The notes beneath the pieces are model-generated. The model was not told the DNA's origin, did not search any database, and was given only the letters and a program-made list of their open reading frames with translations. This document shows positions 17,579-64,000 of a stretch of 64,000 nt of DNA, piece after piece. A program made the position numbers and the translations under genes. The DNA comes from an uncultured Planctomycetales bacterium (GTDB taxonomy: Bacteria; Planctomycetota; Phycisphaerae; UBA1845; JAFGLZ01): assembly GCA_964446835.1 (NCBI GenBank), contig CAYUQT010000007.1, positions 9,176-73,175 on the forward strand, written 5' to 3'. Every line of letters starts with the position of its first letter. Positions within the stretch are counted from its first letter, which is position 1.

Positions 17579-17731
17579 GGAGGGAGGCCGGGGAGGGGTA
17601 GCGGTAGTCCGAGGGTCTCGAAAAAGTGGCCTGTCGCGGCGGCCCTTGCCCTTGTCAGATGAGGGGTCCGGGAGATATGCTGTAGGATTTACGATGTTGA
17701 TAAGCCTTCAGAATCGAGGGAGTTGCGTCTG

Positions 17732-31015: not shown

Positions 31016-31132
31016 CCGAAGTCCCTGCGTTGAGTGAAGGGTGCGGTCCGGACGTCGTATGACTGGTGTGTCGGCTACGGGATAGCGCCCGCCCTCGGGT
31101 GGCGATGCCCTTCGCTGAAAGGAGCGATCTTC

Positions 31133-47800: not shown

Positions 47801-48736
47801 CTACACCAGGCGCACGTGAGCGCGTTTGAGGTCGGGCACCTGAAGCAGGACCTCCTGGACCTGGAGCCACCCGGTCGGGATACCGGCATCGTATGCCTGT
47901 CCGTCGATGAGGAGGGCCAGGTGGCGTCCGCCGGCGGCCCGCAGGCTCTCCTGGGCGGCCGTCAGTTGGATCTCACCGCGCTGGCGGGTGTTTTGTCGAA
48001 CCATTTCATCGAGCCGCTGCATGATGTCGGCGGAGAAGACATAGTTGCCGAAGTGGGCCAGCCATCGCTCGGGCGGCAGGCCGGGGGTGATCATGTCGCG
48101 CCGGGCCTGTTCCAGCGAGGGCTTCTCGACGATCAGTTGCGACTCAAACAGCCCCGGTGCCCCCGCAATGGGATCGCCGCGCATCACACCGACTCGCGAC
48201 AGGGTCTCGGCATCGCAGGCGAACATGCCGGAGATCGCGGCGGGGCGATGGCAATGGAAGGCCTCTACGACCTGCCAGGCACAAGAATGTTCCTGATGTG
48301 AGACGAAGAGGTAGTCGCCGAGCATGACCAGGAAGGGTTCGTCGCCGACCCAATCGCGTGCGCACCAGACGGCATGCCCGAAGCCCTCGGGCGACGCCTG
48401 CTCGATGTAGGTGATCTGCCGCCCCCACCGTTCGAGCTGATCGCTGACGGCCAGGAGTTCGGGCCGGCCTGCCACGGCCGCCAGCAGTTCGGGGGTTAAT
48501 GCCTTGAAGTACTTTCTCAGGGAATCCGCCTGTCCTGGAGAGACGACGAAGGCCACCTCTTCGATGCCGGCGGAGGATGCTTCCTGGAGCAGGAAGTCGG
48601 CGATGGGCTTCGGCAGCCCGTCACGATCCATGAGGGGCATCAGGGCCTTGGGAATGACCACGGTGGCCGGAAGTTGTCGGGTGCCGCGCCCGGCTACGGG
48701 AATGACGGCTTTGCGGACTCTCCGGTGGGTGCTCAT
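47801..48736 (-). CDS. galU: UTP--glucose-1-phosphate uridylyltransferase
   Basis: Nucleotidyltransferase motif KAVIPVAGRGTRQLPATVVIPKALMP. Confidence 0.8.
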   Translation of the reverse strand: MSTHRRVRKAVIPVAGRGTRQLPATVVIPKALMPLMDRDGLPKPIADFLLQEASSAGIEEVAFVVSPGQADSLRKYFKALTPELLAAVAGRPELLAVSDQLERWGRQITYIEQASPEGFGHAVWCARDWVGDEPFLVMLGDYLFVSHQEHSCAWQVVEAFHCHRPAAISGMFACDAETLSRVGVMRGDPIAGAPGLFESQLIVEKPSLEQARRDMITPGLPPERWLAHFGNYVFSADIMQRLDEMVRQNTRQRGEIQLTAAQESLRAAGGRHLALLIDGQAYDAGIPTGWLQVQEVLLQVPDLKRAHVRLV

Positions 48737-48839
48737 ATCCTCGATCCGTTCCTTTCGATTCCCGCACGTCGGGTGGTGTTTTCCTGACTTTCCGATGCAC
48801 TGCGTCTCCGCGAGCCGTCGCCAGGGAAAGGTGATGAGA

Positions 48840-51296
48840 TCACGGTGCGATTCGGATCTCCACCGGCCCGAACAGGCCCGACGGGCGGCGATGTTTGGCA
48901 TCGTACCGAGCGGCCAGCGAGTTTGTCACCTCGACCACGAGTTCATTCTCGCCTTGGCGCAGGATCGTCGCGACGTTCCAGGCGTAGGGAGCCCAGAATC
49001 TCGGCCCCAGGTTCTGCCCGTTGAGTCGCACAACCGCCCAGTCGCCCACCTTGCCCAGATCCAACGTGCAGCGTCCGGCAATCGGACCATCGACATGAAA
49101 CCGCGTCTGGTATCGCAGGGTGCCGGCGTAGGAAGCGGTGGGCTTCAATTCCAGCCAGTTGCCCAGCTTCTCGCCCACCCGCTGCCCCTCGGCGTTCAGC
49201 ATTTCCCAGGGGCCCGGCACCGAAACACCCTTCGGCGATGCCGGTGGCGCCGGCGGCGGTTCAACGGGGCGCGGCGGACCCGGCTCTACACACAGAACGA
49301 TGCTCTCTCGGCGCCCCAGGTCCAACGGAAGGGACATGCTGTTGGGCCCCACATGCGTCACCGCGGCCGGGCTGAATCGCCCGGACCACGCGTCGAACCA
49401 GTCGGAGCGGCCGACGGATCGGCAGGTGACGGTGGTGCGAACGGGTGCCGCACCTTCGTTGACGAGCAGATAGAACTCGACGCCGTCGCGTCGGACGTGT
49501 GTCACCCGCAGGTCGATCGACGGCGGATCGAGGCGGACGTCACGATCGAGGCCTTCGACCCATTCGGCCGAGGGCGTTGCCCGACAGGTGCGCACCCGGC
49601 CGCCAGCGGCGGCAAACGCCTTCGTGCGATCGGCCGTCGCCCCGGTGAGCGGCTCGTCCTGATCGATCACGAGCATCGAATAGGACATCGGGCCGACGTG
49701 GATCCGCCCATCGGCGATGCGGGCCTGTTCGCACAGTCGCCAATCTTCGAGGTAGTTGAAGTCGACCTGGTTCTGGTAGAGCCACTTGGCGGCCCGCCAC
49801 GGGAGGCGATTTCCAACCGACAGCACCGCCACCTCGCAGACTTGGCGGCTGTCGGTCATCAGCCCACACAGACGGGTGGTGTAGTCGGCGAACAGCCGGT
49901 AGTGCGGCCACCAGGCGTTGTGCATGCCCAGGTCGGGCGGGCGTTCGTAGGCGCGTTCACCGCGGATCGTATAGTAGAAGGCGTGGGGGTAGAACATGTT
50001 GACGCCTCGGACGATCAGCCAGTCGGCCAGCCACTTCATTTCATCCATCGTCAGATGCCAGCCGTAGGCCCCATAGATTTCGTTGGCGTTTCGGCGGCGA
50101 TCGTCATGACGGGCGACGCTGCTGGAGCACTTGCCCACGGTACTGTGGGCGCCCTCCAACGCCGACGGGGACTCGGGCAGAAGCCATCGCCAGACCATGT
50201 CCTGGCCGGGGATCTGAAACAGACGGAGCGGGCGGATTTCGTCACTGCCCGAGGGATGCCCCGTCAGGGCGATGCCGTGTTCCTGACACCAGCGTGAGAT
50301 GGGCTGGTAGTAGGACTCGTCCAATCGCTGTGCCAGCGTGAGATGAAAGTCGTCGCGAACCTTCTGCGTGGCATTGCCGGCGGGATAGAACAGCGCCGGC
50401 AGGAGAGGTTCCAGACGATAGCCGCGGCGGCGTGCGAAGTCATCGGCCAGCCCGTCGGTCCACGGCACCAGTCCGCCGCGTCCGCCCCGACCCAGGAGGC
50501 CGGGTTCATCCGTGAACATCGCGATGACCGTCTTGCCGAAATGGTCTTTCAGCACGCGGTGATAGGGATCGTAGGCGAACCGGATGAAGGCCTTCATTGC
50601 CTCGAAGTTCAGCAGATCGGCCGAGGGCGGGGCACCGGGCTGGCCATCTTCCTCGCCGACATGAACGCCGCGGATATGCCCGCCGGATTTGACGCAGGCA
50701 AACGTCATGAGGCGCCAGCGGCCTTCGGGCACGGCGATGGTGCCCTCGGGCTTTTCGATCCAGCGCGGCTCCGAGAGATCGAGCGTGCCCTTGTCGTCGA
50801 TGCGACGGGCCAGCACGACCGCGACCTGCCGGCCGCCCCCCACACGGGGAGCCTCAGCCTGAGCCGGGCCGGACACGTCTTTATGAGCGACCGCCAATCC
50901 CTTCGTGGCGAATTCGGGGTTCGATCCGACGACCTTGCCATGAGCCGATCCTGAAGGGTACATCCCCTCGTCGTAGAGGACGACTTTCATTCCGGTTTTC
51001 GATGCCTCGTCGACCGCGAATCGCACGTGGCCCAGCCATCGTTCGCCCATGTACTCGATATCGCGGGGCAGTCCCATGCGGGCATGGATGATGAAACCGT
51101 AGACGCCGTGCGAACGAAACTCGGCGAGTTGATGGCGGGTCTGGTCGTCGGTGATCTGGTCGTTCCAGAACCAGAAGGGGATCTGCGCGTACTCCGGATC
51201 GGGGCGAGCCAGACGCGTCTGCCACGCCTTGTCGGCGGACCCCGCGAGCAGCGGACAGGTCAGAAACAGTGTCCATGCAATCGAAGAAGCTCTCAT
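48840..51296 (-). CDS. secreted glycoside hydrolase (TIM-barrel catalytic domain with C-terminal galactose-binding-like domain)
   Basis: Signal peptide (MRASSIAWTLFLTCPLLAGSA). 818-aa multi-domain protein with glycosidase-like motifs; the GH family is not assignable by eye. Confidence 0.55.
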   Translation of the reverse strand: MRASSIAWTLFLTCPLLAGSADKAWQTRLARPDPEYAQIPFWFWNDQITDDQTRHQLAEFRSHGVYGFIIHARMGLPRDIEYMGERWLGHVRFAVDEASKTGMKVVLYDEGMYPSGSAHGKVVGSNPEFATKGLAVAHKDVSGPAQAEAPRVGGGRQVAVVLARRIDDKGTLDLSEPRWIEKPEGTIAVPEGRWRLMTFACVKSGGHIRGVHVGEEDGQPGAPPSADLLNFEAMKAFIRFAYDPYHRVLKDHFGKTVIAMFTDEPGLLGRGGRGGLVPWTDGLADDFARRRGYRLEPLLPALFYPAGNATQKVRDDFHLTLAQRLDESYYQPISRWCQEHGIALTGHPSGSDEIRPLRLFQIPGQDMVWRWLLPESPSALEGAHSTVGKCSSSVARHDDRRRNANEIYGAYGWHLTMDEMKWLADWLIVRGVNMFYPHAFYYTIRGERAYERPPDLGMHNAWWPHYRLFADYTTRLCGLMTDSRQVCEVAVLSVGNRLPWRAAKWLYQNQVDFNYLEDWRLCEQARIADGRIHVGPMSYSMLVIDQDEPLTGATADRTKAFAAAGGRVRTCRATPSAEWVEGLDRDVRLDPPSIDLRVTHVRRDGVEFYLLVNEGAAPVRTTVTCRSVGRSDWFDAWSGRFSPAAVTHVGPNSMSLPLDLGRRESIVLCVEPGPPRPVEPPPAPPASPKGVSVPGPWEMLNAEGQRVGEKLGNWLELKPTASYAGTLRYQTRFHVDGPIAGRCTLDLGKVGDWAVVRLNGQNLGPRFWAPYAWNVATILRQGENELVVEVTNSLAARYDAKHRRPSGLFGPVEIRIAP

Positions 51297-51572
51297 ACGG
51301 TATGACACAGACCTCTCCTTCGTGAGCGACCTCGTGGGTACGGGAAGCGTGCGAAGGGGCTGCCGGCGCCAGGGCCCGGCGAGCCGCACCATGTTGCCCG
51401 CCCTCCTCCGGGAGTTTCGATCATCGTAAAGGATGCTGCAGACTGCAATACCCTCTGGGGAGCCTTGTCCCCGAGAGGCAAATCGGAGAACACCCTCGCA
51501 CGGTTCCGAGGGTTCGTGGAGGGTACCCGGTCTTCGGGTGCGAGCCGGCGTTTGTTCGCCGATCGTTCGAGC

Positions 51573-54500
51573 TCACTGCGCTCGAGTTCTGCGCGGGACC
51601 GGCGGCCGGCCACCTGCCACAAGCCACGACACCGACCAGATCGTCATGAAGGTCCCGCCCGCCGCCGCCAGGGCCCAGAGGACCAACTGGTTCTGGTTCG
51701 CCAGTCCTGAGGACACGATTGCACCGGGATAGTCTGCCGTGTCGGTTGACGGGGGTGCCGAGGCGATCGCCAGTCGTTTGCGGCAATCGGTGATCTGTTT
51801 ATCGATGTCGGCCAGGGCGCGATCGGCCGCCTTGTCGCGTTCGGCCGCCTCGCCGTATGCCGCCTGGCGACGTTCCCAGGCCGCCTGTCCGAGTTGCTCG
51901 GTCAGAAGCTGGTCATCCCGCTTGAGGAGTTCCTCGATGGCCTGATCTCTCGCGGCGACCGCCTCGTTGGCCTGGCGTCTCAGGTCGGCCAACTGTTTCT
52001 CACGGCGTTCGATCACCTGATCGCCGGCCTGCCGTTCGAGCCCCTGGGTGATTTCCTTCTGTCGGAATGAGATGCGGCTGCGCAACTGCGTGACCTGTTT
52101 CAGGCAGGCTTCCAGTCGTTCGCTGCTCATCGGGATGATTTCGGCGCCGGCGTTGGCGAAATCGCGACGGGCGGTGGTCATCTCTTCGGCCTGTTTCTTC
52201 AGGGCATCCTGGAGCACGATCCGCCGTGTCATATCGTCGCCGCCCGATTGTGCGATCGCCTTGATCTGGGCATTGATCGACACGATCGGCCGACCGAGTT
52301 GATCGAGTAGATCCGAGAGGTTCTTTTCGGCCTGTTGCTGTTCGGTGACCAGGTTGATCGGCTCGGCGGCGTTGGGTTGCCCGCGAAGCTTGTTCAACTG
52401 GGCCTCCCACGACCGGGCGGCCTCGACGAGGGCTTTCCGGCAGGTGGCCAGTTCGGATCGGATCTGATTGAGTGCCGTCTGGACATCTTCGGCCGAGCCG
52501 TTGCCCAGGCGCGAGGCGACCTCTCGATCGAACGCATCCACCTTTTCGGCCAAGGTGCCCAGCGGCCCGCGACCGACCTCGAGCCCATCGACGAGGAACC
52601 CGCGAAGCTGCTGCTCGCGGAGTCGGAGTTGTTCGGTGTCCTGCTGAAGCTGGGTATCGGCAGCCGTTGCGGTCCGGAGGGCCTCGGCATCGACTTCCAC
52701 GCTCGGACGGCTCGATGAGAACTGGGCGAACTTCTGCTCGGCCGCCGCGCATTGCTGCCGCAAGGTCTGCCAGTTGGCGAGGATCTCCGAGCGCTGCCGG
52801 ATGAGCTGATCGATCGGCTGAGCCGAGGGCTGTGACTGTGCGGCCGTCTTCAGTTCGGCCACTTCGGCGGCGCTGCGCTTCTTGGCCTGTTCTCTGCGGG
52901 CCTTCTCGGCCATCAGGTCTTTGATCTCTCCCGACGACGTTGGCGTCACGGAGCGGTTATTGATGTGGTCTTTGAGGGCCTTGCCCAATGCGTCGATGAT
53001 CGCCTGGGTGCGCTTGGGGGCGGAGGTGATCGCCCGAATTCGAATCTGCACCTCTTCGGGGATGGCTCTGATCTCGATGTCGGAGCCGGGTCCGAGCATG
53101 GCGCCGAGGTCATCGGCCGAGAGGTCGAGGTCCAGTGACGAGGCGGCTGCGGTGATCACGGTGGGGGATCTCAAGGCCTCGACATAGCGAGCCAAAGCCT
53201 GAGCGGGAGCCTCCTCCGTGGTTACGTGGAGGAAGCCCTGAACCTCATGGCGGATACCGATGGCCCACACGGCGATCAGGGCTGCGGCCCCGGCCAGAAT
53301 CCCGGAGGCCGTCAGGGCCCGGCGAAGGTTGAACCCCCCTGTCTCGATAATCAGGGGCTGTCCGCCGAGTCCCTGTTGTGCCTGCGCCGCGAGTTCTTCG
53401 AGCGATTCGACCTCTTCGGCAAGCCGTTGCTCCCGTCCGGTCAGGTCGGCCGCCTGCCGGGCGAGTTCTTCTCGCCGCTGGTCGAGGACCTGGCGTTCTT
53501 CGGCCACCTGGTGCGTGACGTCCTGGCGCTCCTGTTCGAGGAGGCGGCGTTCGTTCTGAAGGCGCGACATCTCCTGTGCCAGGCGCTTCTGCTCGTCAAC
53601 AACGCTGCGCTGGGCCTCGGTGAGCCCCGATTCGGTCGACACGGCCTTGGCAAGCCGCTGTTCGAATTCCTGCCGGGCGGCGTTCAGTTCTTCGTACTGC
53701 TTTCGGACCTTGGCCTCGGCCGCCTGGCACTGCGTTTCGACCTGGCGGCGGGTTTGCGTGAGTTTGTCCTCCTCGGACGTCATGGCCTTCCGCTGCTGCT
53801 CGATCCGGTCGGCCTGCTCGCGAAGCTCCTGGAGCCCGGGCTCCAGAGACCCCTGCAGGGCCTCCAGCTCGGCGGATCGCATGTCGAGTTCCGCCGTCCG
53901 CTCGTCGAGCCGGCGTCGCAGTGCCTCCAGCTCGCCGCGGGTGGCGGATGCCTCTTCACGATGAGCGGCGATTTCGGACTGCTGTCGCGAGACCTCCGCC
54001 GCTTTCTTCGCAAGGTCCTCTTCATGGCGCGTCAGTTCATCCAACTGGCGTTCCAGCTCGCGTTCATTCTCCAGTCGAGCGGCCTCGGCCTCACCGGCCT
54101 GCCGTCGGAAGGTCTCTTGTTCCGCCCGAAGCCCGCTCTCCAACTCTGCCAGTTCCCGCTCGCGGGTTTCCAGCGCATCTTCCCGCTGAGTCAGCGAGGT
54201 TTCACGAGACTGAAGGCTGCTTCGCTGGGCCTCGATCAGTTCGCGTTGCCGGCTCAGCTCGGCCTCAACACGATCCAGATGCTGCTCGCGGGCCGCCAGT
54301 TCGTCGGAACGGACATCGAAGGTCGCCTGCATTTTCAGAATGCGATCTCGCTCTTCGGCAAAGTCGGCATCCTTGCGAGCCAGTTCGGCCTCCTGACGGT
54401 CGCACTCGGAGCGAATCTCGGCCACCCGCCGTTCGTCGGCCTCCAACTGGATGCGGCGTTCGTCGATATCCTGTTGTTCGGTGTCCATTTCGGCGCGGCG

Positions 54501-55655
54501 CCGGGCCTGTTCGTGTGCGGCCTCGTGCTCCGACTCTTCGAGGGCCGACTGCCGGGCCTCCACCTCTCGCTGACGGATGGACAGCTGCTGCCCACGCTCG
54601 GTGACCTGGGTGAGTTGTGTTTCGAGCTGTTCCAGCTTCCTGCGAAGATCGGCGCGGTGTTCTTCGCTCTCGAGTTCGATCCGCTCGCGGGTTTCATTGA
54701 CCCTGGCGATTTCCGCTTCGAGCTGGGCCTGGCGTTCCGAGAGGCTCTCGCGCTGCGCGGTCAGAGCGGCTCTCTGTTTCTCGATGCTCTCGGCGCGGTC
54801 GGTCAACGCCGCCTGTTCGGCCGTCAGGCTGCCCCGCTGTTCATCAAGCTGTTCTCGCTGGGCGGCCAGGTGATCTCTCTCGCTCTGAAGGGAAAGCTGT
54901 TCCCGTTCGAGGTCTTCCCTACGGCGGTTCAACTCGGATACGGCCACCTCGATGCCGGTCTGGTCCTGGGAGAGTTGCGCCGCCCTGGCACTGGTCTGCT
55001 GTTCCTGGCGCAACAGCTCCGCCCGGTATTTTTCCAGTTCGTCCCGCTCGGTCTGCTGCGTGGCGGTGCGACGGTCGAGGTCGGTTCGGCCCTCTTCGAC
55101 GCGGCGCTGCAGCTCGGCGAGATCAGCCCTCTCCTGCCGGAGTTGATCTCGCAGGCCTTGGACCTGCTGGCGCTCGGCGTCCAGTTCCGCCTGTTGCTGT
55201 CGATAGAACTCCGCCAGCTTGTCCACCTGTGTGGAGGTCTGTTTTGCTTCAAAGGACTCGTTGAGGCGTTGAACCTCGGAGCGGGTTTCGGCCAGCCGCT
55301 GCCGGGCCTCGTGGGTCTGGCGGCGCTGATCCTCGATGGCGGCCTCTCGTTGATCGATATCGAGCTGAAGGGCATCAAGCTGTGCTTCACGGGTGGCCAG
55401 TTTCGCGCGTGTCTCTTCGAGTTCGCGCCGCTGGGCGTCCAGCCTGGCCTGCAACTGAGTCAGACGCGCCTCCAGATCGGCGGTGTCTCGTTCGCCCGCA
55501 TCGCCGTTGGATATCCGCCGGGCGACCGTCTCGTCCTCGATGCGAGGGCGGTCGCTTGCAGACAGAGAGGGCGTGCTACCTTCTTTGATGAGTTCGTCTG
55601 CCGAGTTGGTCTTGCTGTTCTGACCGTTGGCCTGTTTGCCTCTGCCCAGTCTCAT
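51573..55655 (-). CDS. giant coiled-coil membrane protein with Wzz/GumC (polysaccharide co-polymerase)-like TM-periplasmic coiled-coil-TM C-terminal module
   Basis: 1360 aa. Residues 1-790 are a nearly continuous heptad-repeat Glu/Arg/Gln/Ala-rich coiled coil. TM1 is at about 795-815. A roughly 480-aa second helical domain follows, TM2 is at about 1325-1347, and the tail is a short basic PVPRRTRAQ. Confidence 0.6.
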   Translation of the reverse strand: MRLGRGKQANGQNSKTNSADELIKEGSTPSLSASDRPRIEDETVARRISNGDAGERDTADLEARLTQLQARLDAQRRELEETRAKLATREAQLDALQLDIDQREAAIEDQRRQTHEARQRLAETRSEVQRLNESFEAKQTSTQVDKLAEFYRQQQAELDAERQQVQGLRDQLRQERADLAELQRRVEEGRTDLDRRTATQQTERDELEKYRAELLRQEQQTSARAAQLSQDQTGIEVAVSELNRRREDLEREQLSLQSERDHLAAQREQLDEQRGSLTAEQAALTDRAESIEKQRAALTAQRESLSERQAQLEAEIARVNETRERIELESEEHRADLRRKLEQLETQLTQVTERGQQLSIRQREVEARQSALEESEHEAAHEQARRRAEMDTEQQDIDERRIQLEADERRVAEIRSECDRQEAELARKDADFAEERDRILKMQATFDVRSDELAAREQHLDRVEAELSRQRELIEAQRSSLQSRETSLTQREDALETRERELAELESGLRAEQETFRRQAGEAEAARLENERELERQLDELTRHEEDLAKKAAEVSRQQSEIAAHREEASATRGELEALRRRLDERTAELDMRSAELEALQGSLEPGLQELREQADRIEQQRKAMTSEEDKLTQTRRQVETQCQAAEAKVRKQYEELNAARQEFEQRLAKAVSTESGLTEAQRSVVDEQKRLAQEMSRLQNERRLLEQERQDVTHQVAEERQVLDQRREELARQAADLTGREQRLAEEVESLEELAAQAQQGLGGQPLIIETGGFNLRRALTASGILAGAAALIAVWAIGIRHEVQGFLHVTTEEAPAQALARYVEALRSPTVITAAASSLDLDLSADDLGAMLGPGSDIEIRAIPEEVQIRIRAITSAPKRTQAIIDALGKALKDHINNRSVTPTSSGEIKDLMAEKARREQAKKRSAAEVAELKTAAQSQPSAQPIDQLIRQRSEILANWQTLRQQCAAAEQKFAQFSSSRPSVEVDAEALRTATAADTQLQQDTEQLRLREQQLRGFLVDGLEVGRGPLGTLAEKVDAFDREVASRLGNGSAEDVQTALNQIRSELATCRKALVEAARSWEAQLNKLRGQPNAAEPINLVTEQQQAEKNLSDLLDQLGRPIVSINAQIKAIAQSGGDDMTRRIVLQDALKKQAEEMTTARRDFANAGAEIIPMSSERLEACLKQVTQLRSRISFRQKEITQGLERQAGDQVIERREKQLADLRRQANEAVAARDQAIEELLKRDDQLLTEQLGQAAWERRQAAYGEAAERDKAADRALADIDKQITDCRKRLAIASAPPSTDTADYPGAIVSSGLANQNQLVLWALAAAGGTFMTIWSVSWLVAGGRPPVPRRTRAQ

Positions 55656-56090
55656 CGATCACCACCTTCGTCTGATCGCCCCAAGCGATTGCGCGAACAC
55701 GTCGGACACCTCGGCGACTCTCCGGCGAGGCCGTCCGCCCTCATCCGCAGGAATCTCGCATTGCGCTATGAGCCACTGACATCCGACCTGGAAGACGATG
55801 TCGGGCACTTCCTTTGCGCCGAACATCGCGTCTTGCTCTCACCCGGCGGTGGTACGATAGGCCGTATATAACCCCGTGGATTCATTCTACCTATCGGATC
55901 GTTCGAGGCCAATAGGGTTGCGGAACATTGCCTCCCGGGCAGGATGCCCTGGAGGGTTTGCGGCTTGCGAGTGGGCCAGGTGACGGGCTGTCGATTCAGC
56001 CGAGCCGGAGCGTCCTGGCCTCCGGTTTCCGGAGCAAGGACGCCCGGGCCCGGAAGGACAGAGACTCATCAATTGATGTTTGGCAGAGCA

Positions 56091-56735
56091 CTAGTTCTGC
56101 GAAACCTGGAAGGCGAACAGTTGCACCCAGTAGTAGTAGTCTCCGCCCGCGGCCTGGATGTGGTAGTAGCCGATGCCGACGTATTTGAAGTCGGCGCGAA
56201 GCATGTTCTCGTTGTGGCCGGGACTGTTCTTCCAGGCCGTCATGACGTCGGACACGGCGGACATGCTGTTCTGTCCCATGGCGATGTTCTCACCGACATA
56301 GCGGTGGCAGAAGCCGGCCTGGACGGCACGGTCGCTGGGCTGCTTGCCGTCGGGGTTGGTGTGACTGAAGAAGTGACGGTCGTACATATCGCGAGCGTGG
56401 GCGTCGGCGGCCTGCTGAAGTGTCCTGGAGTACTGGAGCCCCGTCAGTTGATTCATCACGCGGTAAGCGTTGAGTTGATCCAGCGCCGCTTGATGGGTGG
56501 TGTCGGTGGGACTGCCCAGCGCCAGACAGCCGGAGACCGGCGGATCGATCGGGACGAACCCCCCGCCGCCTGTGACTTCACCGCCGTTTCCGCCGAACCC
56601 TCCGCCGCCACCGCCACCGGTGGTGGTCGTGTTGGACGGTGTCTGCGTTCCCGCGGGTGGAAGGCATGCTCCCACCGACGAAACGATCACACCCCATACT
56701 GCGAACCGGATGATGACATTGTGCATTGGTCTCAT
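56091..56735 (-). CDS. CAP/SCP/PR-1 domain lipoprotein
   Basis: Signal peptide with Cys (VSSVGAC), a Gly/Thr-rich linker, then a CAP domain (HFFSHTNPDG..., WKNSPGHNENML..., YVGIGYY). Confidence 0.7.
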   Translation of the reverse strand: MRPMHNVIIRFAVWGVIVSSVGACLPPAGTQTPSNTTTTGGGGGGGFGGNGGEVTGGGGFVPIDPPVSGCLALGSPTDTTHQAALDQLNAYRVMNQLTGLQYSRTLQQAADAHARDMYDRHFFSHTNPDGKQPSDRAVQAGFCHRYVGENIAMGQNSMSAVSDVMTAWKNSPGHNENMLRADFKYVGIGYYHIQAAGGDYYYWVQLFAFQVSQN

Positions 56736-56919
56736 GCCTTGCCCACCGGGTGATTCTGCCTTCCGGCCCCCCTGCTCCATGAACCCCTTGAGCCTCGGCC
56801 GGCCGGCCGCAAGAGATCGGGAGACGCATTGTTTCGCCGAGTCTTTCCGGAACGATGCGTCGGATACGGTCCTGTAATCTACATCGGTCGGTCACAGAGG
56901 CGACTACCGGATCTTCCGG

Positions 56920-58176
56920 CTATTCGCCTCGAATGAACCGCATGGCTCCGTGGCCCAGCAGATCGGTCACCTCCCGGGTGATCTGATCCTCCGGCAAGGT
57001 CCAGCCGGCCTGAAGAAGGAGGAAGTACTTGTCCGTCAGCACATGGGTCAGCATCACCCTGGCATCGTGCCACTTGTAGACGAGCTGTTCGAGCACGCGG
57101 CAATCGGAATGCTGGGGCGTGAAGCTGTGTCCGAGCAGTTCGATTCGCATCCGAGCGATTTCATCGGTCAGGCTGGACACGTTCACAAACCACCAACACC
57201 CGAAGACGTGGAGGTTATGGAACTTCCGGGTCAGCACGGCCAGTTCGTGCTGATCTTCGCGGCTGAGCACGGTCGTCAGGAAACGGTTCCGGCCGAAGTT
57301 CGAACAGAGATTGACCAGCGACATCAGGTCCGCACGTCCGACACCGTCGCCAGCCAGCCGGAGTTTCGGGTTGATCTGCCGTCGCACACCGACCATCACG
57401 GCAAACGGCAGATTGTGGTCGGTCGCGGCCGGCATCACACACCGCTCGATCAGCTTCGACGCGACGGAGTCGTCGGGATAGTGGAAGTCCGGCCCCAGCG
57501 AGGCGGCCATATAGACGGGGTTCATTTGCCGGATCCAGTCGTCGAGAAACCGGCGGACTTCGTCGAATGTCCGTCCGGACAGGTCCGGCTCGACGTGATA
57601 GCCCATGTTTCGGACGATCGGTGCGACGCGAGCCCAATCGACCAGCAGGGCATCGATCCTCAGGGCGGCCAGAAAGCGTTCGTCGAAGGCCTTCTGGGCG
57701 AACCAGATGGGTTGCTCAGTCGAATCGAAGGGATCGTTGGTCATCACCATGGATCGGACCCGACAGACCTTGAGCACATGGTCGAGGTGATCCTCGGTTC
57801 GGATGTTGGTGAAGTACGTGCGGTGCTTGGTGATATCGCGTTCCGAAGGATCGAGACCGAGCTGCCGGAGGCACGTCACAACACCGCGGCAGGCTTCGCT
57901 GATGGGCGAGCGTTTGACGAACAGCTCGTTCCAGATGAGATCGGCCTGCTCGGATTTCGGCAACGACCAGAAACGGTCGTAGTCGATCCGGCGACCGGCC
58001 ACGCGGAAGAACTCGGCAACGATGTAGTGAAAGGTCAGCATCTCGTCGATGCCCCAGAGCAGCAGACTGCCGAACTGCGGGGCATACAGATGCGTGTGGA
58101 TGTCGATGATCTCCGCCTGTTCCAACGATCGGCGAACGACGGCTTCGATCTCGCTGCGTTTTGTGTCCTGGTTCAT
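56920..58176 (-). CDS. glucuronate isomerase (UxaC) family protein
   Basis: N-terminal IIDIHTHL (UxaC has DYHCHL) and the C-terminal UxaC signature FGCWWFVNV...LL (compare GSGWWFND). Confidence 0.6.
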   Translation of the reverse strand: MNQDTKRSEIEAVVRRSLEQAEIIDIHTHLYAPQFGSLLLWGIDEMLTFHYIVAEFFRVAGRRIDYDRFWSLPKSEQADLIWNELFVKRSPISEACRGVVTCLRQLGLDPSERDITKHRTYFTNIRTEDHLDHVLKVCRVRSMVMTNDPFDSTEQPIWFAQKAFDERFLAALRIDALLVDWARVAPIVRNMGYHVEPDLSGRTFDEVRRFLDDWIRQMNPVYMAASLGPDFHYPDDSVASKLIERCVMPAATDHNLPFAVMVGVRRQINPKLRLAGDGVGRADLMSLVNLCSNFGRNRFLTTVLSREDQHELAVLTRKFHNLHVFGCWWFVNVSSLTDEIARMRIELLGHSFTPQHSDCRVLEQLVYKWHDARVMLTHVLTDKYFLLLQAGWTLPEDQITREVTDLLGHGAMRFIRGE

Positions 58177-58450: not shown

Positions 58451-59158
58451 TCAGTAGGCCCCCCGTCCGGAGAGTACCGCGGGGACGGTCTTGAGGATAA
58501 TCAGCAAGTCCATGCCCAGGCTTCGGTTCTGAACGTAGTAGCCGTCGAGCTGCATCCACTCGTTGTAGGGGATGTCGGTTCGGCCGGCGATCTGCCAGAG
58601 GCAGGTGAGCCCCGGTTTGACGCTCAGCCTCAGCCACTCGCCCCAGTTGTCGGTTCGGATCTCGCTGAGGGGCAGAGGACGCGGACCGACGAGCGTCATT
58701 TCACCGCGCAGTACGTTGATGAGCTGAGGCAGTTCATCGATGCTGCTTCGGCGAAGCCATCGGCCGACACGAGTGATTCGGGGGTCTCTTCGGATCTTGA
58801 AGACGGGGCCGTCTTCGAGTTCGTTCTGATCGGCCAGATGGTGCTGATCTGCCGCGGCCCCCTGATACATCGTTCGCAATTTGTACATGGTGAACGGCCG
58901 ACCGTGGAGTCCGGCACGGAGCTGACTGAACAGAATGGGTCCGCGACTGGTCAACTTGATCAGAGCGGCCGAGACGAGCAGTACGGGGGAGGCCATTACC
59001 AGCATCAGAGACGCCAGAACGATATCGATAGCGCGCTTGGCCGCGAGATACACCCGGTCAACGAGGTATGCCCAACCCTTGGTGGAGATGGACAGCGTCA
59101 GCCCCACCGATGGGGCACGAGCCGCCCATTCCATAAAAGACGCCTGAGCCTGAGTCAT
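58451..59158 (-). CDS. bacterial sugar transferase (WbaP/CpsE/ExoY-type polyprenyl-phosphate hexose-1-phosphate transferase, short form)
   Basis: Single N-terminal TM and a conserved C-terminal catalytic region (PGLTCLWQIAGR, SLGMDLLIILKT). Confidence 0.85.
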   Translation of the reverse strand: MTQAQASFMEWAARAPSVGLTLSISTKGWAYLVDRVYLAAKRAIDIVLASLMLVMASPVLLVSAALIKLTSRGPILFSQLRAGLHGRPFTMYKLRTMYQGAAADQHHLADQNELEDGPVFKIRRDPRITRVGRWLRRSSIDELPQLINVLRGEMTLVGPRPLPLSEIRTDNWGEWLRLSVKPGLTCLWQIAGRTDIPYNEWMQLDGYYVQNRSLGMDLLIILKTVPAVLSGRGAY

Positions 59159-59970
59159 TCGGCTATCGCCCTCCCGAGCCCGCCGTGTGAACCACGGAAG
59201 GCCCGACGAAGCACCGCCGCGGCCAGTGATCCGGCGAACAGCGGATTACCTATCAGGTATCGGCCAGCCTTGCCTTTAGGGTCCACCCCCAGCCTGAATA
59301 GCCATTCCAAACCCGCCCGGCACATCCACGCCGGAGCCCGAGATTCGACCCCTGCCGGGTAGTCGAACAAGGCCCCCACCGTCCAGATCACGGGGACTTT
59401 CAGCTTGTGTTGGTTCTCCGCGGCCCATTCTTCCTGCCGAGGACTGCCCATACCTACCATCAGGAGGTTGGGATTCGCCTCGTTGATTCGATGGATCACG
59501 GCCGGGCCGGTGGAAAGGTCGAAGTGGCCGTTATCGGTGCCGCAGATCTTCAGACCCGGCGCGATAGAACACATCCAGTTCGCGGCCGCCTGGGCGATGC
59601 CCTCGCGCCCGCCGAGCAGGTAGAGCGACACGCCGGTCTCGGCGCATGCCCGGACGAACTCCTCAACGTAATCAGCGGAACTGAGTCGCGCCGGCAAGGG
59701 GGACCCCAGCAGCCGGCTGGCCCAGACCATCGACATGCCGTCGGCGTAGAGAACATCCGCGGTGGCCAGGGCCTTTCGGAACGACGGAACCCGGCGGCGG
59801 ATATTCCAGCTATGAGCGTTGACGTAGCAGACTCGGGTTCGCACTCCCGATCGGGCCCGATCCACCAGGAGATTGATGAACTCCGCCCGGTTCACCGACC
59901 AGAGCGGCAGCCCCATCACATCCACGATGGGAGGCGTGTTCAGATTGGAGGTCGAACTAGTCAAACCCAT
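59155..59970 (-). CDS. WecB/TagA/CpsF-family glycosyltransferase
   Basis: Motifs VCYVNAHSWN and LLMVGMGSPRQEEWA are typical of the WecG/TagA family. 4-nt overlap with the downstream sugar transferase gene. Confidence 0.8.
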   Translation of the reverse strand: MGLTSSTSNLNTPPIVDVMGLPLWSVNRAEFINLLVDRARSGVRTRVCYVNAHSWNIRRRVPSFRKALATADVLYADGMSMVWASRLLGSPLPARLSSADYVEEFVRACAETGVSLYLLGGREGIAQAAANWMCSIAPGLKICGTDNGHFDLSTGPAVIHRINEANPNLLMVGMGSPRQEEWAAENQHKLKVPVIWTVGALFDYPAGVESRAPAWMCRAGLEWLFRLGVDPKGKAGRYLIGNPLFAGSLAAAVLRRAFRGSHGGLGRAIAE

Positions 59971-61360
59971 GCTTCCTGGCTACGAGCGTCTCGTAGAGCC
60001 CCTGGTACTTGCGAGCCACCACCTCAGCGGAGAAATGTTGTTCGATGCGACGTCGCCCCGCCTGTGCCAGCCGTTGCGCCATCGGGCGATCACTCAGAAG
60101 ACGATCAAGGCCTTCGGCCAGAAGGTCCGGTCGCTTTGAAGGAACCAGCAATCCCGTCTGCCCATCCTGTATGACCTCGCCGACCCCACCGACGTGGGTC
60201 GCCACGACCGGCAGACCGGCCGAGGAAGCCTCCAACAGCACGTTGGGAAGCCCTTCCATGTATGAGGGAAGGCAGAAGATGTCCGCGCCCGCCAGCACAG
60301 CAGCGATGTCCGATCGGAATCCGACCAGACGAACGCGCCCGTCGAGTCCGGCCTGGCGAACCTGTTCTGACAGCTCGGCCTTCAGTGGACCATCGCCCAC
60401 CACGGCCGCGACCACCTCGGGGTGCCGTTGAACGAGGCGTCCCATGGCCTCAATCAGAACCGAAATGCCTTTCTCATAGCTCAGGCGAGCGACCATCACG
60501 ATCAGCGGTGTGGAGGGTTGCAACCCCCACTGCTGACGGGTCTGCCGGCGGAGCTCTTCCGTCGGGACGTAGTCGGCCGGCTCAATACCGGTATGGATGA
60601 CGGACACGGAATCCTTGGGACACCGCAATCTACGGATGCAGTCGTCTCGGACCGCCTTGCTGACCGCCAGGACATGATCCGGCATCAAACGAATGAGCTG
60701 GTCGAGCATGCCGTCCAGGAGCCTCTTCTTGTCGCGGCGGTACTCCCCAATGGCATAGGCGGTGGAGACCACGGCGGGGTGACCTGCGAGCTTGCCGGCC
60801 AACCCGGCATACAGGTCGGCCCGGAGGAGGTGCGTATGGACGACGTCGAACTGTCCCCGGCGGATTTCGCGATAGGCCCTGTGAATCGCCCTGAGGTCCA
60901 GTTCGCCCGGGGCCTCCCAGTTGGTGGCAGGCACGCCAATGGACTCGAAATTCGCCTGCATGGGCCCCCCCCCGTACAGGCAGGCGATGCTGGGGATGCA
61001 CCGATGGGTATCGCGACGCCTGAGCAGTGTGAGGAGCCACTTCGTGTCGGTCTTGACCTCGAAGGTCGAGACGACATGCAGGACGCGGATCGGGCGTGGG
61101 GGGGCCAGAGGCAGACCCTCTATGACCGCCACGTCGGACGGAGCCATCGGCGTCACCCCATGGCTCACTCCGCGAGATCGCCTGGAGGGTTCCGTGAGGC
61201 TCCGACGAGCCTTTGGCCTGCCCGTTCGGACTGTATCTGCTTGTCTGACAGACCGGTCGATCATGGTCTCACACTGAGGAAGCCTACGATTTGGACTTGA
61301 CACATCCAAACTGGTGTCAGGCAATCCGGAAATGAATTCTTTGTTCTTCAGCGGTTCCAT
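59957..61360 (-). CDS. GT4-family glycosyltransferase
   Basis: GT-B fold motifs (IRVLHVVS..., EGLPNVLLEASSAGLPVVATHVGG). Start ambiguous: 61360 (M1) or internal Met at 61147. A TATAAT -10 lies about 85 nt upstream of 61360. Confidence 0.75.
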   Translation of the reverse strand: MEPLKNKEFISGLPDTSLDVSSPNRRLPQCETMIDRSVRQADTVRTGRPKARRSLTEPSRRSRGVSHGVTPMAPSDVAVIEGLPLAPPRPIRVLHVVSTFEVKTDTKWLLTLLRRRDTHRCIPSIACLYGGGPMQANFESIGVPATNWEAPGELDLRAIHRAYREIRRGQFDVVHTHLLRADLYAGLAGKLAGHPAVVSTAYAIGEYRRDKKRLLDGMLDQLIRLMPDHVLAVSKAVRDDCIRRLRCPKDSVSVIHTGIEPADYVPTEELRRQTRQQWGLQPSTPLIVMVARLSYEKGISVLIEAMGRLVQRHPEVVAAVVGDGPLKAELSEQVRQAGLDGRVRLVGFRSDIAAVLAGADIFCLPSYMEGLPNVLLEASSAGLPVVATHVGGVGEVIQDGQTGLLVPSKRPDLLAEGLDRLLSDRPMAQRLAQAGRRRIEQHFSAEVVARKYQGLYETLVARKHGFD

Positions 61361-61450
61361 GATCGGCTAGACGAAGATCCAAACTAAGACTATATTTCAA
61401 TTAACAATACTATAAAAAGTCCCTATGTACTGCGTGATACTTTATTATAG
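61361..61450 (-). promoter_or_regulatory. AT-rich intergenic promoter region within the glycosyltransferase cluster
   Basis: About 35% GC over 90 nt in a 65% GC context. It contains TATAAT (minus strand) and several A/T tracts, between two co-directional GT genes. Confidence 0.4.
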
Positions 61451-62628
61451 GCATCGGCCCTGCGTATCGGTCTTCCATCGGCGCTACCGCGCCGTGTGCT
61501 GCAGAGTTTTTCGACCAGGTCCTCGATCTCGGAGGCCATCTGGCCGGCAGTAAACTCCGACAGAACCTTCGCCCTCGCCCGTTGTCCGAGTGCCTTCCTC
61601 TGCGTAGGATCGTTGATGACCTCTGCTAGAACGCTCGCGAGGGACTCGGCATCCCAGGGGCGGAAGTTGCGGCCGGTCTGATGATCGACGAGGGCTTCAT
61701 CGAGCGATCCGTAGGAGGGAGCCAAGAAGCACCTGCCGGCGGCCATCGCCTCGAGCATGACGATACTGAGGCACTCCCATTGGCTGCAGAGGCAGACGAT
61801 GTCGAGGCCCTGCATCATCAGAGGCAGATCCTCCACTCTGCCGAGCATGCGGATTCGATCACCCGACAGTCCACTCTGAGCGATCTTCTGTTCGATGCTC
61901 GGTCTTTGGCCCCCCTCTCCGATGATGATGAAGACCGCGCGGGGACAATGGGGCGCCACGCGGGCGGCCGCCTGTACGAAGAGGTCATGTCGCTTGTCGG
62001 GCCTGAGGTTAGCGATGATTCCCACGGCGACGGTCTGATCGTCGGTCAACCGGAGTTCCCGTCGAGCCTGGTCGCGGAGACCGGGACGGTCGAACTCGCG
62101 TCCGTCGATGCCATTGCGGATGACCACGGTACGGCCGGCAGGGATATGCTCGTGGCGGACCAGTGCTTCTCGATGCCGTTTCCCCGATGCCACGAAAGTG
62201 TCGACCCAGCGATAGAGCGCCCGGTTCGATCGTTCGAAGTGAGTGTCACCCGCGCGCGGGCAGAGGTGCGACCAGACCATCATGGGGCGTTGGGTCCGAC
62301 GGGCCGCCAGTGTAGACCAGAACATGCGATCTCCGCCGCTACCTACGGCGCAGAGGGCGTCGATCCCCTCGCGAAGAATCAAGCTGGTCAGCTTCTCGAT
62401 CACGAACAGGTCCAGTTTGTGCTTGAGCAGGTCCGCGTGGACAGCCACGCCCATATCCGCAAACTGGGGCGCCATCGGTCCCGGGTCTTTCAAACAAGCG
62501 ACGACGGGCTGCAGGCGGGTTCGATCCGCCCAGCGAGCCAACGTCAGGATCATGTTTTCCGCGCCGCCGGTGGCGAGACGGTTCGTCACCAGCAGAAGCC
62601 GTTTTGGCGCGCAACCCTCAGTACCCAA
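61423..62628 (-). CDS. GT4-family glycosyltransferase
   Basis: Motifs RLLLVTNRLATGGAEN and ECLSIVMLEAMAAGRCFLAPSYG. The proposed start is TTG at 62626-62628, 6 nt after AGGAGG; the ORF-track GTG at 62655 is the alternative. Overlaps the end of the upstream GT2 gene. Confidence 0.75.
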   Translation of the reverse strand: MGTEGCAPKRLLLVTNRLATGGAENMILTLARWADRTRLQPVVACLKDPGPMAPQFADMGVAVHADLLKHKLDLFVIEKLTSLILREGIDALCAVGSGGDRMFWSTLAARRTQRPMMVWSHLCPRAGDTHFERSNRALYRWVDTFVASGKRHREALVRHEHIPAGRTVVIRNGIDGREFDRPGLRDQARRELRLTDDQTVAVGIIANLRPDKRHDLFVQAAARVAPHCPRAVFIIIGEGGQRPSIEQKIAQSGLSGDRIRMLGRVEDLPLMMQGLDIVCLCSQWECLSIVMLEAMAAGRCFLAPSYGSLDEALVDHQTGRNFRPWDAESLASVLAEVINDPTQRKALGQRARAKVLSEFTAGQMASEIEDLVEKLCSTRRGSADGRPIRRADAYNKVSRST

Positions 62629-63560: not shown

Positions 63561-63675
63561 CTCACACGACAAGCCATGCTCATCATGGCCTATCTCGTAA
63601 AACGTCCCAATGGAGCGAGAGTCGGCAAACCGAGGTTTGTACGAAGGGCCCCCGGACCCTTCACTCCGAGATCGA

Positions 63676-64000
63676 TTATCGGTCTGACGATTTGCGTCGG
63701 ATCCGATAAATCGTCCCATTTACATATCGGCCATATGGCTGTTCGGCATGTGTCGAACTGGTGTTGCAGGTGAGACCCGCCTTGGAAAGCACCTCGGAGA
63801 AGCCCTTGGCAACCTCGCGGTTAGGATCACTGACAAGGGCCACACCATCATCGGCCAGGAGGGCGTTGAACAGATCGGCCAGGGGTTGGAGGTTGCGTCG
63901 TTCGTAGAGAACGTCGGAGGCTAGTATTCGACTATAACGATTCAATGCAGATGGCTTTCGCCAATCCACGTACTTGACGTTGATCCCGCCCAACCCGTTG
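63676..64000 (-). CDS. class I SAM-dependent methyltransferase (Methyltransf_16/lysine-methyltransferase-like), C-terminal part; gene continues beyond window end
   Basis: RILASDVLYERRNLQPLADLFNALLADDGVALVSDPNR matches the post-motif-II region of METTL21-like methyltransferases. The frame is open to the window edge. Confidence 0.5.
   Translation of the reverse strand, partial: NGLGGINVKYVDWRKPSALNRYSRILASDVLYERRNLQPLADLFNALLADDGVALVSDPNREVAKGFSEVLSKAGLTCNTSSTHAEQPYGRYVNGTIYRIRRKSSDR

What the first reader, a model, noticed from the sequence alone, without database searches (positions are those of the whole stretch)
51573..55655. 1360-aa protein combining a roughly 790-aa cytoplasmic coiled coil with a Wzz/GumC-like TM-periplasmic-TM module, heading an exopolysaccharide locus
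Seen in sequence: the C-terminal 560 aa have the polysaccharide co-polymerase (PCP) topology. TM1 (about residues 795-815) is followed by a roughly 480-aa helical/coiled-coil domain, then TM2, and the tail is short and basic (PVPRRTRAQ). Known PCPs (Wzz, GumC, ExoP, Wzc) have only a short cytoplasmic N-terminus. Here it is preceded by an almost uninterrupted Glu/Arg/Gln/Leu-rich coiled coil of about 790 aa, roughly 100 nm if rod-like. Downstream on the same strand lie a CAP-domain lipoprotein, a UxaC-like isomerase, a WbaP-type priming transferase, WecB/TagA and three GT-A/GT-B glycosyltransferases. This is consistent with an EPS or capsule pathway in which this protein could couple chain-length control to a cytoplasmic scaffold. 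A PEP-CTERM protein (28986-30080) in the same window is also consistent with an exosortase-associated EPS system.
Basis: partly seen in the sequence, partly recalled or inferred. Interest (0 to 1): 0.7.

Follow-up and report, generated by a model that had tools for sequence, protein, structure and literature searches.

The report
Giant coiled-coil protein with PCP-like module
A 1360-residue inner-membrane protein of a planctomycete joins a roughly 700-residue cytoplasmic coiled coil to a very divergent version of the periplasmic module that normally controls polysaccharide chain length, but its relatives are not found next to polysaccharide genes, so its link to the neighbouring sugar-transferase cluster is probably incidental.

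Summary
The ORF is real: window 51573-55655, but on the MINUS strand, 1360 aa. Residues 57-756 are a near-continuous heptad coiled coil. TM1 is at 777-801, a 520-aa periplasmic domain follows, TM2 is at 1321-1346, and the tail is short and basic.

The "heading an EPS locus" reading fails. The glycosyltransferase genes lie upstream, separated by a 435-bp spacer that carries an IS element in sister contigs. No Wzx, Wzy, OPX or exosortase match turned up among the window's larger ORFs. None of about ten other loci holding family members is a polysaccharide locus.

The protein belongs to an unannotated family of at least 139 clusters; every taxon label seen is planctomycete. The periplasmic span is constant (481-546 aa) and the cytoplasmic coiled coil varies from 0 to 1629 aa. 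It is a new architectural variant of a known superfamily; its function is inferred, not shown.

The parts
51573..55655 (-). Whole gene: 1360-aa bitopic (N-in, C-in) inner-membrane protein
   Evidence: ORF list and translation. An identical protein is on record in NCBI, JGI and Logan assemblies. Orthologues are 39-51% identical.
55488..55655 (-). Residues 1-56: N-terminal non-heptad, Gly/Ser/Lys-rich head. The opening M-x-x-G-K/R-G-K is shared with most orthologues.
   Evidence: No heptad periodicity in this stretch. N-termini of the six orthologues compared.
53388..55487 (-). Residues 57-756: cytoplasmic heptad-repeat coiled coil, about 700 aa, up to about 100 nm if fully extended (inference)
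   Evidence: 3.5-residue periodicity and a/d occupancy; one proline only. Composition E 17%, R 14%, A 13%, Q 12%, L 11%. Collinear 41-51% identity with orthologues. SMC and Rad50 NCBIfam hits cover only coiled-coil stretches and score far below their cutoffs.
53253..53357 (-). Residues 767-801: conserved juxtamembrane motif (I/V)IETGGFNLRRAL followed by TM1
   Evidence: Hydropathy peak 2.08 at 783-801. AlphaFold helix at module 7-29. Motif conserved in all six orthologues.
52956..53252 (-). Residues 802-900: N-terminal part of the PCP-type alpha/beta base domain (strand, three helices, two strands, helix)
51765..52934 (-). Residues 908-1297: periplasmic all-helical stalk, ending in a single 119-residue helix (module 409-527)
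   Evidence: AlphaFold model, pLDDT mostly 90-98. The geometry (about 18-20 nm) is my inference from helix lengths, not measured from coordinates.
52041..52217 (-). Residues 1146-1205 (module 376-435): the longest of the two most conserved stretches in the whole family (...FANAGAEIIPMSSERLEACLKQV...); candidate interaction surface
   Evidence: Column conservation in the 63-sequence alignment A3. Near-invariant block in the six orthologues.
52626..52670 (-). Residues 996-1010 (module 226-240): family-wide motif AAD-x-x-LQQD
   Evidence: Highest conservation block in A3, 0.61.
51618..51740 (-). Residues 1306-1346: two short beta-strands predicted just before TM2 (candidate return to the base domain), then TM2
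   Evidence: AlphaFold strands at module 536-538 and 542-548, helix 551-576. Hydropathy peak at 1324-1342.
51573..51617 (-). Residues 1347-1360 plus stop: short basic cytoplasmic tail (GGRPPVPRRTRAQ); no kinase domain
   Evidence: Translation. The family median tail is 14.5 aa.
55656..56090 (-). 435-bp spacer upstream of the gene, with one sigma-70-like site (55912-55884). It is the insertion point (56091) of a 993-bp IS630-like element in near-identical contigs L001/L002.
   Evidence: Promoter scan, a consensus match only. Gene tables of L001/L002. blastn of window against L001: 99.8% identity with a 993-bp gap.

Best explanation
The gene encodes a highly divergent member of the polysaccharide co-polymerase (PCP) structural superfamily. 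It belongs to a family, so far unannotated, whose labelled members are all Planctomycetota.

Shown:
- Topology is N-in/C-in with two TM helices.
- The membrane-proximal alpha/beta base domain has the Wzz/Wzc/KpsE fold.
- The periplasmic domain is about 520 aa and all-helical, longer than I recall for Wzz or Wzc.
- The C-terminal tail is 14 aa, with no kinase.
- The N-terminus carries a cytoplasmic heptad coiled coil of about 700 aa that is conserved in orthologues.

Inferred:
- Like other PCPs, it oligomerises through the periplasmic domains into a ring or cage standing on the inner membrane. The conserved helical motifs (residues 996-1010 and 1146-1205) would contact a partner far from the membrane.
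- It acts in assembly or export of an envelope glycan made by machinery encoded elsewhere, as FepE does in E. coli, rather than as the dedicated partner of the adjacent glycosyltransferase cluster.
- The coiled coils pair or bundle below the ring. They would act as a length-variable cytoplasmic stalk that positions or recruits cytoplasmic partners, such as the FHA-domain proteins encoded next to the giant family members.
For: Architecture.

PCP relationship:
- The family profile finds a genuine Wzz+GNVR protein at E 5e-4 in 5.8 billion sequences.
- The same profile finds Wzc chains in the PDB at E 7.5e-4.
- hhalign against a single PCP gives 86.7%. Against a 26-sequence GumC/ExoP alignment it gives 94.9%, E 4.7e-8, over 301 columns starting at TM1 and in register.
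- AlphaFold models have pLDDT 90.4 and 92.0.
- Foldseek on the whole module finds Wzc and KpsE among coiled-coil noise.

Not tied to the neighbouring cluster:
- The spacer and IS polymorphism.
- Different contexts in L003-L009 and L013-L019 and at the P0037 locus.
- No synteny retained with the window.

Family features:
- 86 complete members have a periplasmic span of 481-546 aa and N-termini of 0-1629 aa, mostly heptad-like.

Established knowledge (mine): PCP genes can lie away from their polysaccharide locus; fepE sits in the enterobactin cluster.
Against: - No Pfam Wzz/GNVR or NCBIfam PCP model matches the protein, or any of 50 family members tested.
- No Wzy, Wzx, OPX or KpsMT-type partner is seen near any family member examined.
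- The conserved neighbours are housekeeping or unrelated genes: tig-clpP-clpP, aldo-keto reductase, tuf/rpl, and a 6-TM protein of unknown family. This would fit a non-glycan role equally well.
- Oligomerisation, stalk geometry and any glycan substrate are inferred only.
- Whole-module fold searches are dominated by generic helical bundles.
Confidence: 0.5

Rival explanations
1. First reader's model. The protein is the dedicated co-polymerase or chain-length regulator of the adjacent glycosyltransferase cluster, an exosortase- or Wzy-type EPS pathway, and its coiled coil couples that pathway to a cytoplasmic scaffold.
For: It lies on the same strand as, and directly after, a cluster with a priming phosphoglycosyl transferase, WecG/TagA, two GT4 and one GT2. 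A GalU-like nucleotidyltransferase lies two genes downstream. The GT4s are best matched by PEP-CTERM/XrtA-associated glycosyltransferase models, although below their cutoffs. A PEP-CTERM protein is present in the window. One distant member (P0037) is followed by a GT4 gene.
Against: - A 435-bp spacer with its own promoter-like site precedes the gene. A 993-bp IS sits in that spacer in 99.8%-identical contigs.
- A catabolic uronate isomerase and a CAP lipoprotein lie between the transferases and this gene.
- No Wzx, Wzy, OPX or exosortase match among the window ORFs scanned or in the extra 659 bp upstream seen in L001.
- Five orthologous loci and six further family loci lack any such cluster.
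Confidence: 0.12
2. The PCP fold has been co-opted for a non-glycan structural role. The protein would be an envelope-to-cytoplasm tether or ruler. Its constant-length periplasmic stalk reaches the outer layers, and its variable cytoplasmic coiled coil forms or anchors a cytoskeleton-like scaffold, for example for division, shape or membrane organisation in planctomycetes.
For: - Family members sit in conserved housekeeping neighbourhoods: tig-clpP-clpP-x-FHA-member in two lineages, with mraZ just downstream in one; tuf/rpmG nearby; an aldo-keto reductase overlapping the start.
- The periplasmic length is tightly constrained (481-546 aa), while the cytoplasmic coiled coil ranges from 0 to 1629 aa.
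- The strongest conservation lies in the periplasmic helical motifs, not in the base domain.
- No glycan export partners are seen nearby.
Against: To my knowledge every characterised PCP-fold protein acts in glycan assembly. Thirty-six of the 86 complete members have N-termini shorter than 100 aa, so the coiled coil is dispensable for the core function. No localisation or phenotype data exist.
Confidence: 0.28
3. It is an SMC/MukB/Rad50-like chromosome protein, as public annotations of relatives suggest ('chromosome segregation ATPase', 'SbcCD ATPase subunit').
For: NCBIfam SMC, Rad50 and ASRP models give E-values from 3e-16 down to 1e-2. JGI names for P0012, P0016, P0022 and P0037 say so.
Against: The matches cover only coiled-coil segments and score 14-58 bits against cutoffs of 300-1087. 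There is no ATPase head domain and no Pfam SMC_N hit. Two TM helices and a periplasmic PCP-type domain are present.
Confidence: 0.01

Closest known systems
Wzc / Etk (PCP-2a; E. coli K30 Wzc, PDB 7nhr; K-12 Wzc 9r62)
   Different: Wzc has a short N-terminus and a C-terminal cytoplasmic BY-kinase with a tyrosine cluster. This protein has a 14-aa C-tail and a 770-aa N-terminal region instead. Its periplasmic domain is about 520 aa and purely helical beyond the base. Sequence identity is 9-12%. No Wza or Wzy partner is seen nearby.
GumC / ExoP-type PCP (PCP-2; Pfam Wzz PF02706 + GNVR PF13807)
   Same: This is the only family reachable by sequence. hhalign gives 94.9%, E 4.7e-8, over 301 columns from TM1 through the base domain into the helices.
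   Different: The Pfam Wzz and GNVR models do not score at all. The P0148 group of GumC/ExoP proteins also carries a C-terminal cytoplasmic domain of about 250 aa, which is absent here. Those I know of (my own knowledge) are encoded inside EPS clusters.
Wzz / FepE / WzzE (PCP-1)
   Different: As I recall, PCP-1 periplasmic domains are about 250-300 aa with a stalk of about 10 nm and a cytoplasmic N-terminus of some 30 aa. Here the periplasmic domain is 520 aa and the N-terminus 770 aa.
KpsE (PCP-3; PDB 8tsh, KpsMT-KpsE)
   Different: KpsE works with an ABC-2 exporter (KpsMT) encoded next to it. No such pairing is seen here.

Membership tests
PCP superfamily (Wzz/Wzc/GumC/KpsE fold) | Two TM helices flanking a large periplasmic domain, both termini cytoplasmic | tested here: met
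   Hydropathy peaks at 783-801 and 1324-1342. Basic residues flank the cytoplasmic sides (NLRRAL before TM1, RPPVPRRTRAQ after TM2). The same layout holds in 86 family members.
PCP superfamily (Wzz/Wzc/GumC/KpsE fold) | Membrane-proximal alpha/beta base domain of PCP fold leading into long periplasmic helices | tested here: met
PCP superfamily (Wzz/Wzc/GumC/KpsE fold) | Detectable sequence homology to known PCPs | tested here: met
   Met only at profile level: hhalign 94.9%, E 4.7e-8; hmmsearch hits to P0148 (E 5e-4) and Wzc (E 7.5e-4). A single-sequence search finds no PCP.
PCP superfamily (Wzz/Wzc/GumC/KpsE fold) | Match to curated family models (Pfam Wzz PF02706, GNVR PF13807; NCBIfam GumC, eps_transp and chain-length models) | tested here: not met
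   No hit even at E<=10 (Pfam) or E<=1 (NCBIfam). None of 50 family members hits Wzz or GNVR.
PCP superfamily (Wzz/Wzc/GumC/KpsE fold) | Pro/Gly-rich motif just before or overlapping TM2 (feature recalled from the literature) | tested here: inconclusive
   The segment ASAPPSTDTADYPGAIVSSGLANQ...AAAGG is Pro/Gly-containing, but it does not reproduce a defined PCP consensus. The wider family shows P-x-N-x3-R there.
PCP superfamily (Wzz/Wzc/GumC/KpsE fold) | Ring (typically octameric) oligomer | not testable with these tools
   Only monomer prediction was available.
PCP superfamily (Wzz/Wzc/GumC/KpsE fold) | Functional or genetic partnership with Wzy/Wzx, an OPX (Wza) or KpsMT | tested here: not met
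   No such Pfam families among the window ORFs scanned or in the gene tables of 11 other loci. Partners encoded elsewhere are not excluded.
PCP-2a (Wzc/Etk BY-kinase co-polymerases) | C-terminal cytoplasmic tyrosine autokinase domain with a Tyr cluster | tested here: not met
   The C-terminal tail after TM2 is 14 aa.
PCP-1 (Wzz/FepE) | Short cytoplasmic N-terminus and a periplasmic domain of about 250-300 aa (sizes recalled from the literature) | tested here: not met
   The N-terminus is about 776 aa and the periplasmic domain about 520 aa.
SMC/MukB/Rad50 | ABC-type ATPase head split between the N- and C-termini, with a hinge or zinc hook | tested here: not met
   Only coiled-coil segments match, at 14-58 bits against cutoffs of 300-1087. 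No SMC_N Pfam hit.

The most novel reading that the evidence does not exclude
This is the founding example of a phylum-wide planctomycete family in which the PCP fold serves as a fixed-length periplasmic pillar, joined through the membrane to a cytoplasmic coiled-coil filament of variable length. It would be a bacterial trans-envelope tether, loosely analogous to a LINC bridge. It would organise the envelope, division site or membrane architecture, possibly under FHA/phospho-threonine control, rather than regulating polysaccharide chain length.
Probability: 0.25. Interest if true: 0.85.

Novelty: new variant of a known kind. Interest (0 to 1): 0.55.

Why it matters
PCPs are the least understood components of Wzy- and ABC-dependent glycan pathways, and all characterised classes have short N-termini. 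Three things stand out here.

- This family is invisible to Pfam and NCBIfam. It is currently labelled 'hypothetical' or 'chromosome segregation ATPase'.
- It pairs a PCP base with an unusually long, length-conserved periplasmic stalk.
- It carries cytoplasmic coiled coils of up to about 1600 aa, in housekeeping gene neighbourhoods of bacteria whose envelope and division biology is unusual.

The finding extends the known architectural range of the superfamily. It also corrects a systematic misannotation and gives a concrete candidate for linking cytoplasmic organisation to the planctomycete envelope. For this particular window, the practical message is that the gene should not be annotated as part of the neighbouring glycosyltransferase operon.

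Tried and rejected
- **Direct family assignment.** Pfam at E<=10 and NCBIfam at E<=1 on the whole protein and on the C-terminal 580 aa gave nothing relevant.
- **Word-indexed homologue search with the single module.** The exhaustive phmmer search was needed.
- **phmmer against PDB sequences.** Nothing.
- **AFDB50 Foldseek.** The library was unavailable.
- **Chimeric 'base-domain-only' construct** (N-part + GSG + C-part).
- **The search for related loci with the 63-sequence alignment.** It failed for lack of a conserved peptide stretch. The 6-sequence alignment found only 3 genome loci.
- **Residual synteny.** A search between orthologous loci and the window found none.
- **Conserved 6-TM downstream partner of orthologues.** No Pfam, NCBIfam or PDB assignment.
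- **Literature searches.** No paper describes a PCP with an N-terminal coiled coil or a planctomycete PCP.
- **Antisense 881-aa ORF (53226-55871, +).** I regard it as a shadow ORF of the coiled-coil region. This is an inference: it covers only the low-complexity part, and the minus-strand product is the one conserved and foldable.


Full report
**1. The observation**

Window 51573-55655 holds one uninterrupted ORF of 1360 codons, but on the minus strand. The plus-strand reading of the same interval is full of stops.

Kyte-Doolittle analysis finds exactly two hydrophobic segments, at 783-801 and 1324-1342. Residues 57-756 show strong 3.5-residue periodicity. In most 56-residue windows 75-91% of the Leu/Ile/Val/Met/Phe residues sit in a/d positions. 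Only one proline (606) lies between residues 38 and 766. The composition is E 17%, R 14%, A 13%, Q 12% and L 11%. The tail after TM2 is GGRPPVPRRTRAQ.

TM1 is about 15 residues earlier than stated. The coiled coil is about 700 aa rather than 790 aa. Most importantly, the strand is wrong.

**2. The neighbours**

- CAP-domain protein, 56091-56780.
- Small Bac_transf priming transferase, 58451-59158.
- WecG/TagA, 59155-59970.
- Two GT4 genes, 59957-61360 and 61423-62655.
- One GT2 gene, 62586-63719.
- The 418-aa protein at 56920-58176. It has no Pfam or NCBIfam hit, but it matches the BH0493 uronate isomerase (PDB 2q08) at E 3e-140.

Because everything is on the minus strand, these genes are upstream of the big gene, which is therefore last, not first. 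Downstream lie a GH106-like hydrolase (48840-51392) and a GalU-like nucleotidyltransferase (47801-48901).

A 435-bp spacer separates the CAP gene from the big gene. It contains the only sigma-70-like site found in the region, which is a consensus match only.

Two metagenomic contigs that are 99.8% identical to the window (L001, L002) carry an extra 993 bp exactly at window position 56091. That insert encodes a DDE_3 transposase fragment. The spacer therefore tolerates an IS element, which argues against obligatory co-transcription with the transferase cluster.

Pfam scans of the window's other large ORFs gave no Wzx, Wzy, OPX or exosortase match; two of them (15359-17578 and 17723-19813) matched no family at all. 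The PEP-CTERM protein at 28986-30254 is genuine, but it lies 21 kb away.

**3. Relatives**

A word-indexed search with the C-terminal 590 aa found nothing. An exhaustive phmmer search of 1.84 billion cluster representatives found 139 proteins at E<=1e-3.

Five are full-length orthologues (1136-1324 aa). They are 39-51% identical in the membrane module and 41-51% identical, collinearly, over the coiled coil. The coiled coil is thus a conserved part of the protein, not a compositional accident.

Every taxon label seen on family members is planctomycete: Phycisphaerae or 'uncultured Planctomycetales' MAGs. Source names are 'hypothetical protein', 'chromosome segregation ATPase' or 'SbcCD ATPase subunit'.

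All hits share one module: TM1, then 481-546 aa (median 512), then TM2, then a short tail (median 14.5 aa). The cytoplasmic N-terminus ranges from 0 to 1629 aa. Fifty of the 86 complete members exceed 100 aa, and most of these N-termini are heptad-like by a crude measure.

**4. Is the module PCP-like?**

Curated models say no. No Pfam Wzz/GNVR or NCBIfam PCP model hits the protein, even at permissive thresholds. None of 50 family members hits them either.

More sensitive tests say yes.
- A profile of 63 family modules (A3) retrieves one bona fide Wzz+GNVR protein, P0148, at E 5e-4 in a 5.8-billion-sequence database.
- The same profile retrieves Wzc chains from the PDB at E 7.5e-4, among coiled-coil noise.
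- hhalign of A3 against P0148 gives 86.7% probability.
- hhalign against an alignment of 26 GumC/ExoP proteins gives 94.9%, E 4.7e-8, over 301 columns. The alignment begins at TM1 and runs in register through the base domain.
- AlphaFold2 with A3 gives a confident model (pLDDT 90.4). Its elements, in order, are a TM helix, a strand, three helices, two strands, a helix, a long helical region ending in a 119-residue helix, two short strands, and the second TM helix. That is the PCP layout.

I regard superfamily membership at fold level as well supported. SMC/Rad50-type matches are coiled-coil artefacts far below their cutoffs.

**5. Is it the co-polymerase of this locus?**

Comparative context says probably not.
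- The orthologous loci L003/L004, L005, L006, L007 and L008/L009 contain no glycosyltransferase cluster.
- Four of them share instead a well-conserved downstream 6-TM protein (60-68% identity, no known family) and a secreted GDPD/PI-PLC-like protein. Neither is present in the window.
- More distant members sit beside tuf/rpmG and ribosomal protein genes (L013, L017).
- Others lie directly after an aldo-keto reductase (L015-L017).
- Others lie in a recurring tig-clpP-clpP-x-FHA protein-member block. In one case this is followed by a GT4 gene and mraZ.
- No Wzy, Wzx, OPX or KpsMT gene appears in any of these gene tables.

The window's juxtaposition with a transferase cluster is therefore lineage-specific. 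Given the IS-tolerant spacer, it is most simply incidental. This does not exclude a PCP-like function. As I recall, fepE in E. coli also lies in an unrelated cluster.

**6. Mechanism**

*Shown:*
- A bitopic N-in/C-in topology.
- A PCP-type base domain.
- A 520-aa helical periplasmic domain.
- No kinase.
- A conserved cytoplasmic coiled coil of about 700 aa.

*Inferred:*
- Ring oligomerisation, as in other PCPs.
- A periplasmic stalk of roughly 18-20 nm. This is estimated from helix lengths only, because I had no access to the model coordinates.
- The family-wide conserved motifs act as partner-binding surfaces. These are AAD-x-x-LQQD at residues 996-1010 and the block at residues 1146-1205.
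- The coiled coil acts as a length-variable cytoplasmic stalk or scaffold.

I put about 0.5 on a PCP-like role in envelope-glycan assembly that is not dedicated to the adjacent cluster.

**7. Novelty and verdict**

I found no paper describing a PCP with a long N-terminal coiled coil or a planctomycete PCP family. The literature library is incomplete, however.

The protein fails the membership tests for PCP-1, PCP-2a and the curated Pfam/NCBIfam models, while meeting the fold-level tests. I therefore class it as a new architectural variant of a known superfamily, and as a member of a sizeable unannotated or misannotated family.

Interest is moderate (0.55). The architecture and its housekeeping context are surprising to a specialist and suggest clear experiments, but nothing about function is yet demonstrated.

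Noticed in passing
window 56091 (junction); L001 8569-9561, L002 7280-8272 (approx.): Contigs 99.8% identical to the window carry a 993-bp IS630-like insertion (a 207-aa DDE_3 ORF plus a 95-aa ORF) immediately after the CAP gene, between the glycosyltransferase/CAP genes and the big gene. The window lacks it, so this is a strain-level polymorphism.
   Followed up: yes
L003 13992-15506, L005 14251-16170, L006 7770-9311, L007 14328-16226 (+); L005 16292-17272, L006 9523-10449, L007 16543-17577: Orthologues of the big gene are followed by a highly conserved 6-TM membrane protein (N-terminus MPDDQQELRR..FPFTQLFRSFRLAIHP; 60-68% identity, more conserved than the big protein itself). Three of the four loci (L005, L006, L007) then have a secreted GDPD/PI-PLC-like protein. 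Neither has a confident family assignment, and neither is in the window.
   Followed up: partly
L014 1067-14141; P0037 locus; L015 1073-5812; L017 2551-5377: There is recurrent synteny in distant family members. Two lineages have tig-clpP-clpP-(~210 aa)-FHA protein-giant member, and in one of them a GT4 gene and mraZ follow. Other lineages have an aldo-keto reductase directly upstream of, or overlapping, the member's start. This suggests a housekeeping gene, possibly regulated through FHA domains.
   Followed up: partly
window 56920-58176 (-): This 418-aa protein has no Pfam-A or NCBIfam hit, yet it matches the BH0493 uronate isomerase (PDB 2q08 and others) at E 3e-140. The family is missed by both HMM libraries. 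It is a catabolic enzyme sitting between the transferase genes and the CAP gene.
   Followed up: yes
window 53226-55871 (+): An 881-aa antisense ORF overlaps the coiled-coil-coding part. Its codon-position GC pattern (0.74/0.43/0.77) resembles that of the real gene. It is most likely a shadow ORF of a low-complexity, high-GC region.
   Followed up: partly
P0012, P0016, P0022, P0037: Public sources name family members 'chromosome segregation ATPase' or 'DNA repair exonuclease SbcCD ATPase subunit'. These are coiled-coil-driven misannotations of membrane proteins that have no ATPase head.
   Followed up: yes
window 15359-17578 (+) and 17723-19813 (+): Two adjacent large ORFs (739 and 696 aa) with coding-like GC3 have no Pfam or NCBIfam hit. 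The first is 29.5% identical to the secreted protein encoded downstream of the orthologue in L008.
   Followed up: no
window 5075-7294 (+): A 739-aa protein has sigma-70 regions 2 and 4 at its C-terminus, preceded by about 550 aa that contain several extra helix-turn-helix motifs. This is an unusually extended sigma-factor-like architecture.
   Followed up: no
window 28986-30254 (-): A PEP-CTERM sorting signal is confirmed (VVPEPMTIGLLALGGLAIVRRTRR; TIGR02595 19.6 bits against a cutoff of 16) on a protein whose body has no family hit. No exosortase match turned up among the window ORFs scanned.
   Followed up: partly
window 11796-13466 (+), 31034-32869 (+): A T2SSE/PilB-type secretion ATPase and a 611-aa SPFH/Band-7 protein are encoded in the same window. 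Neither is linked to the finding.
   Followed up: no
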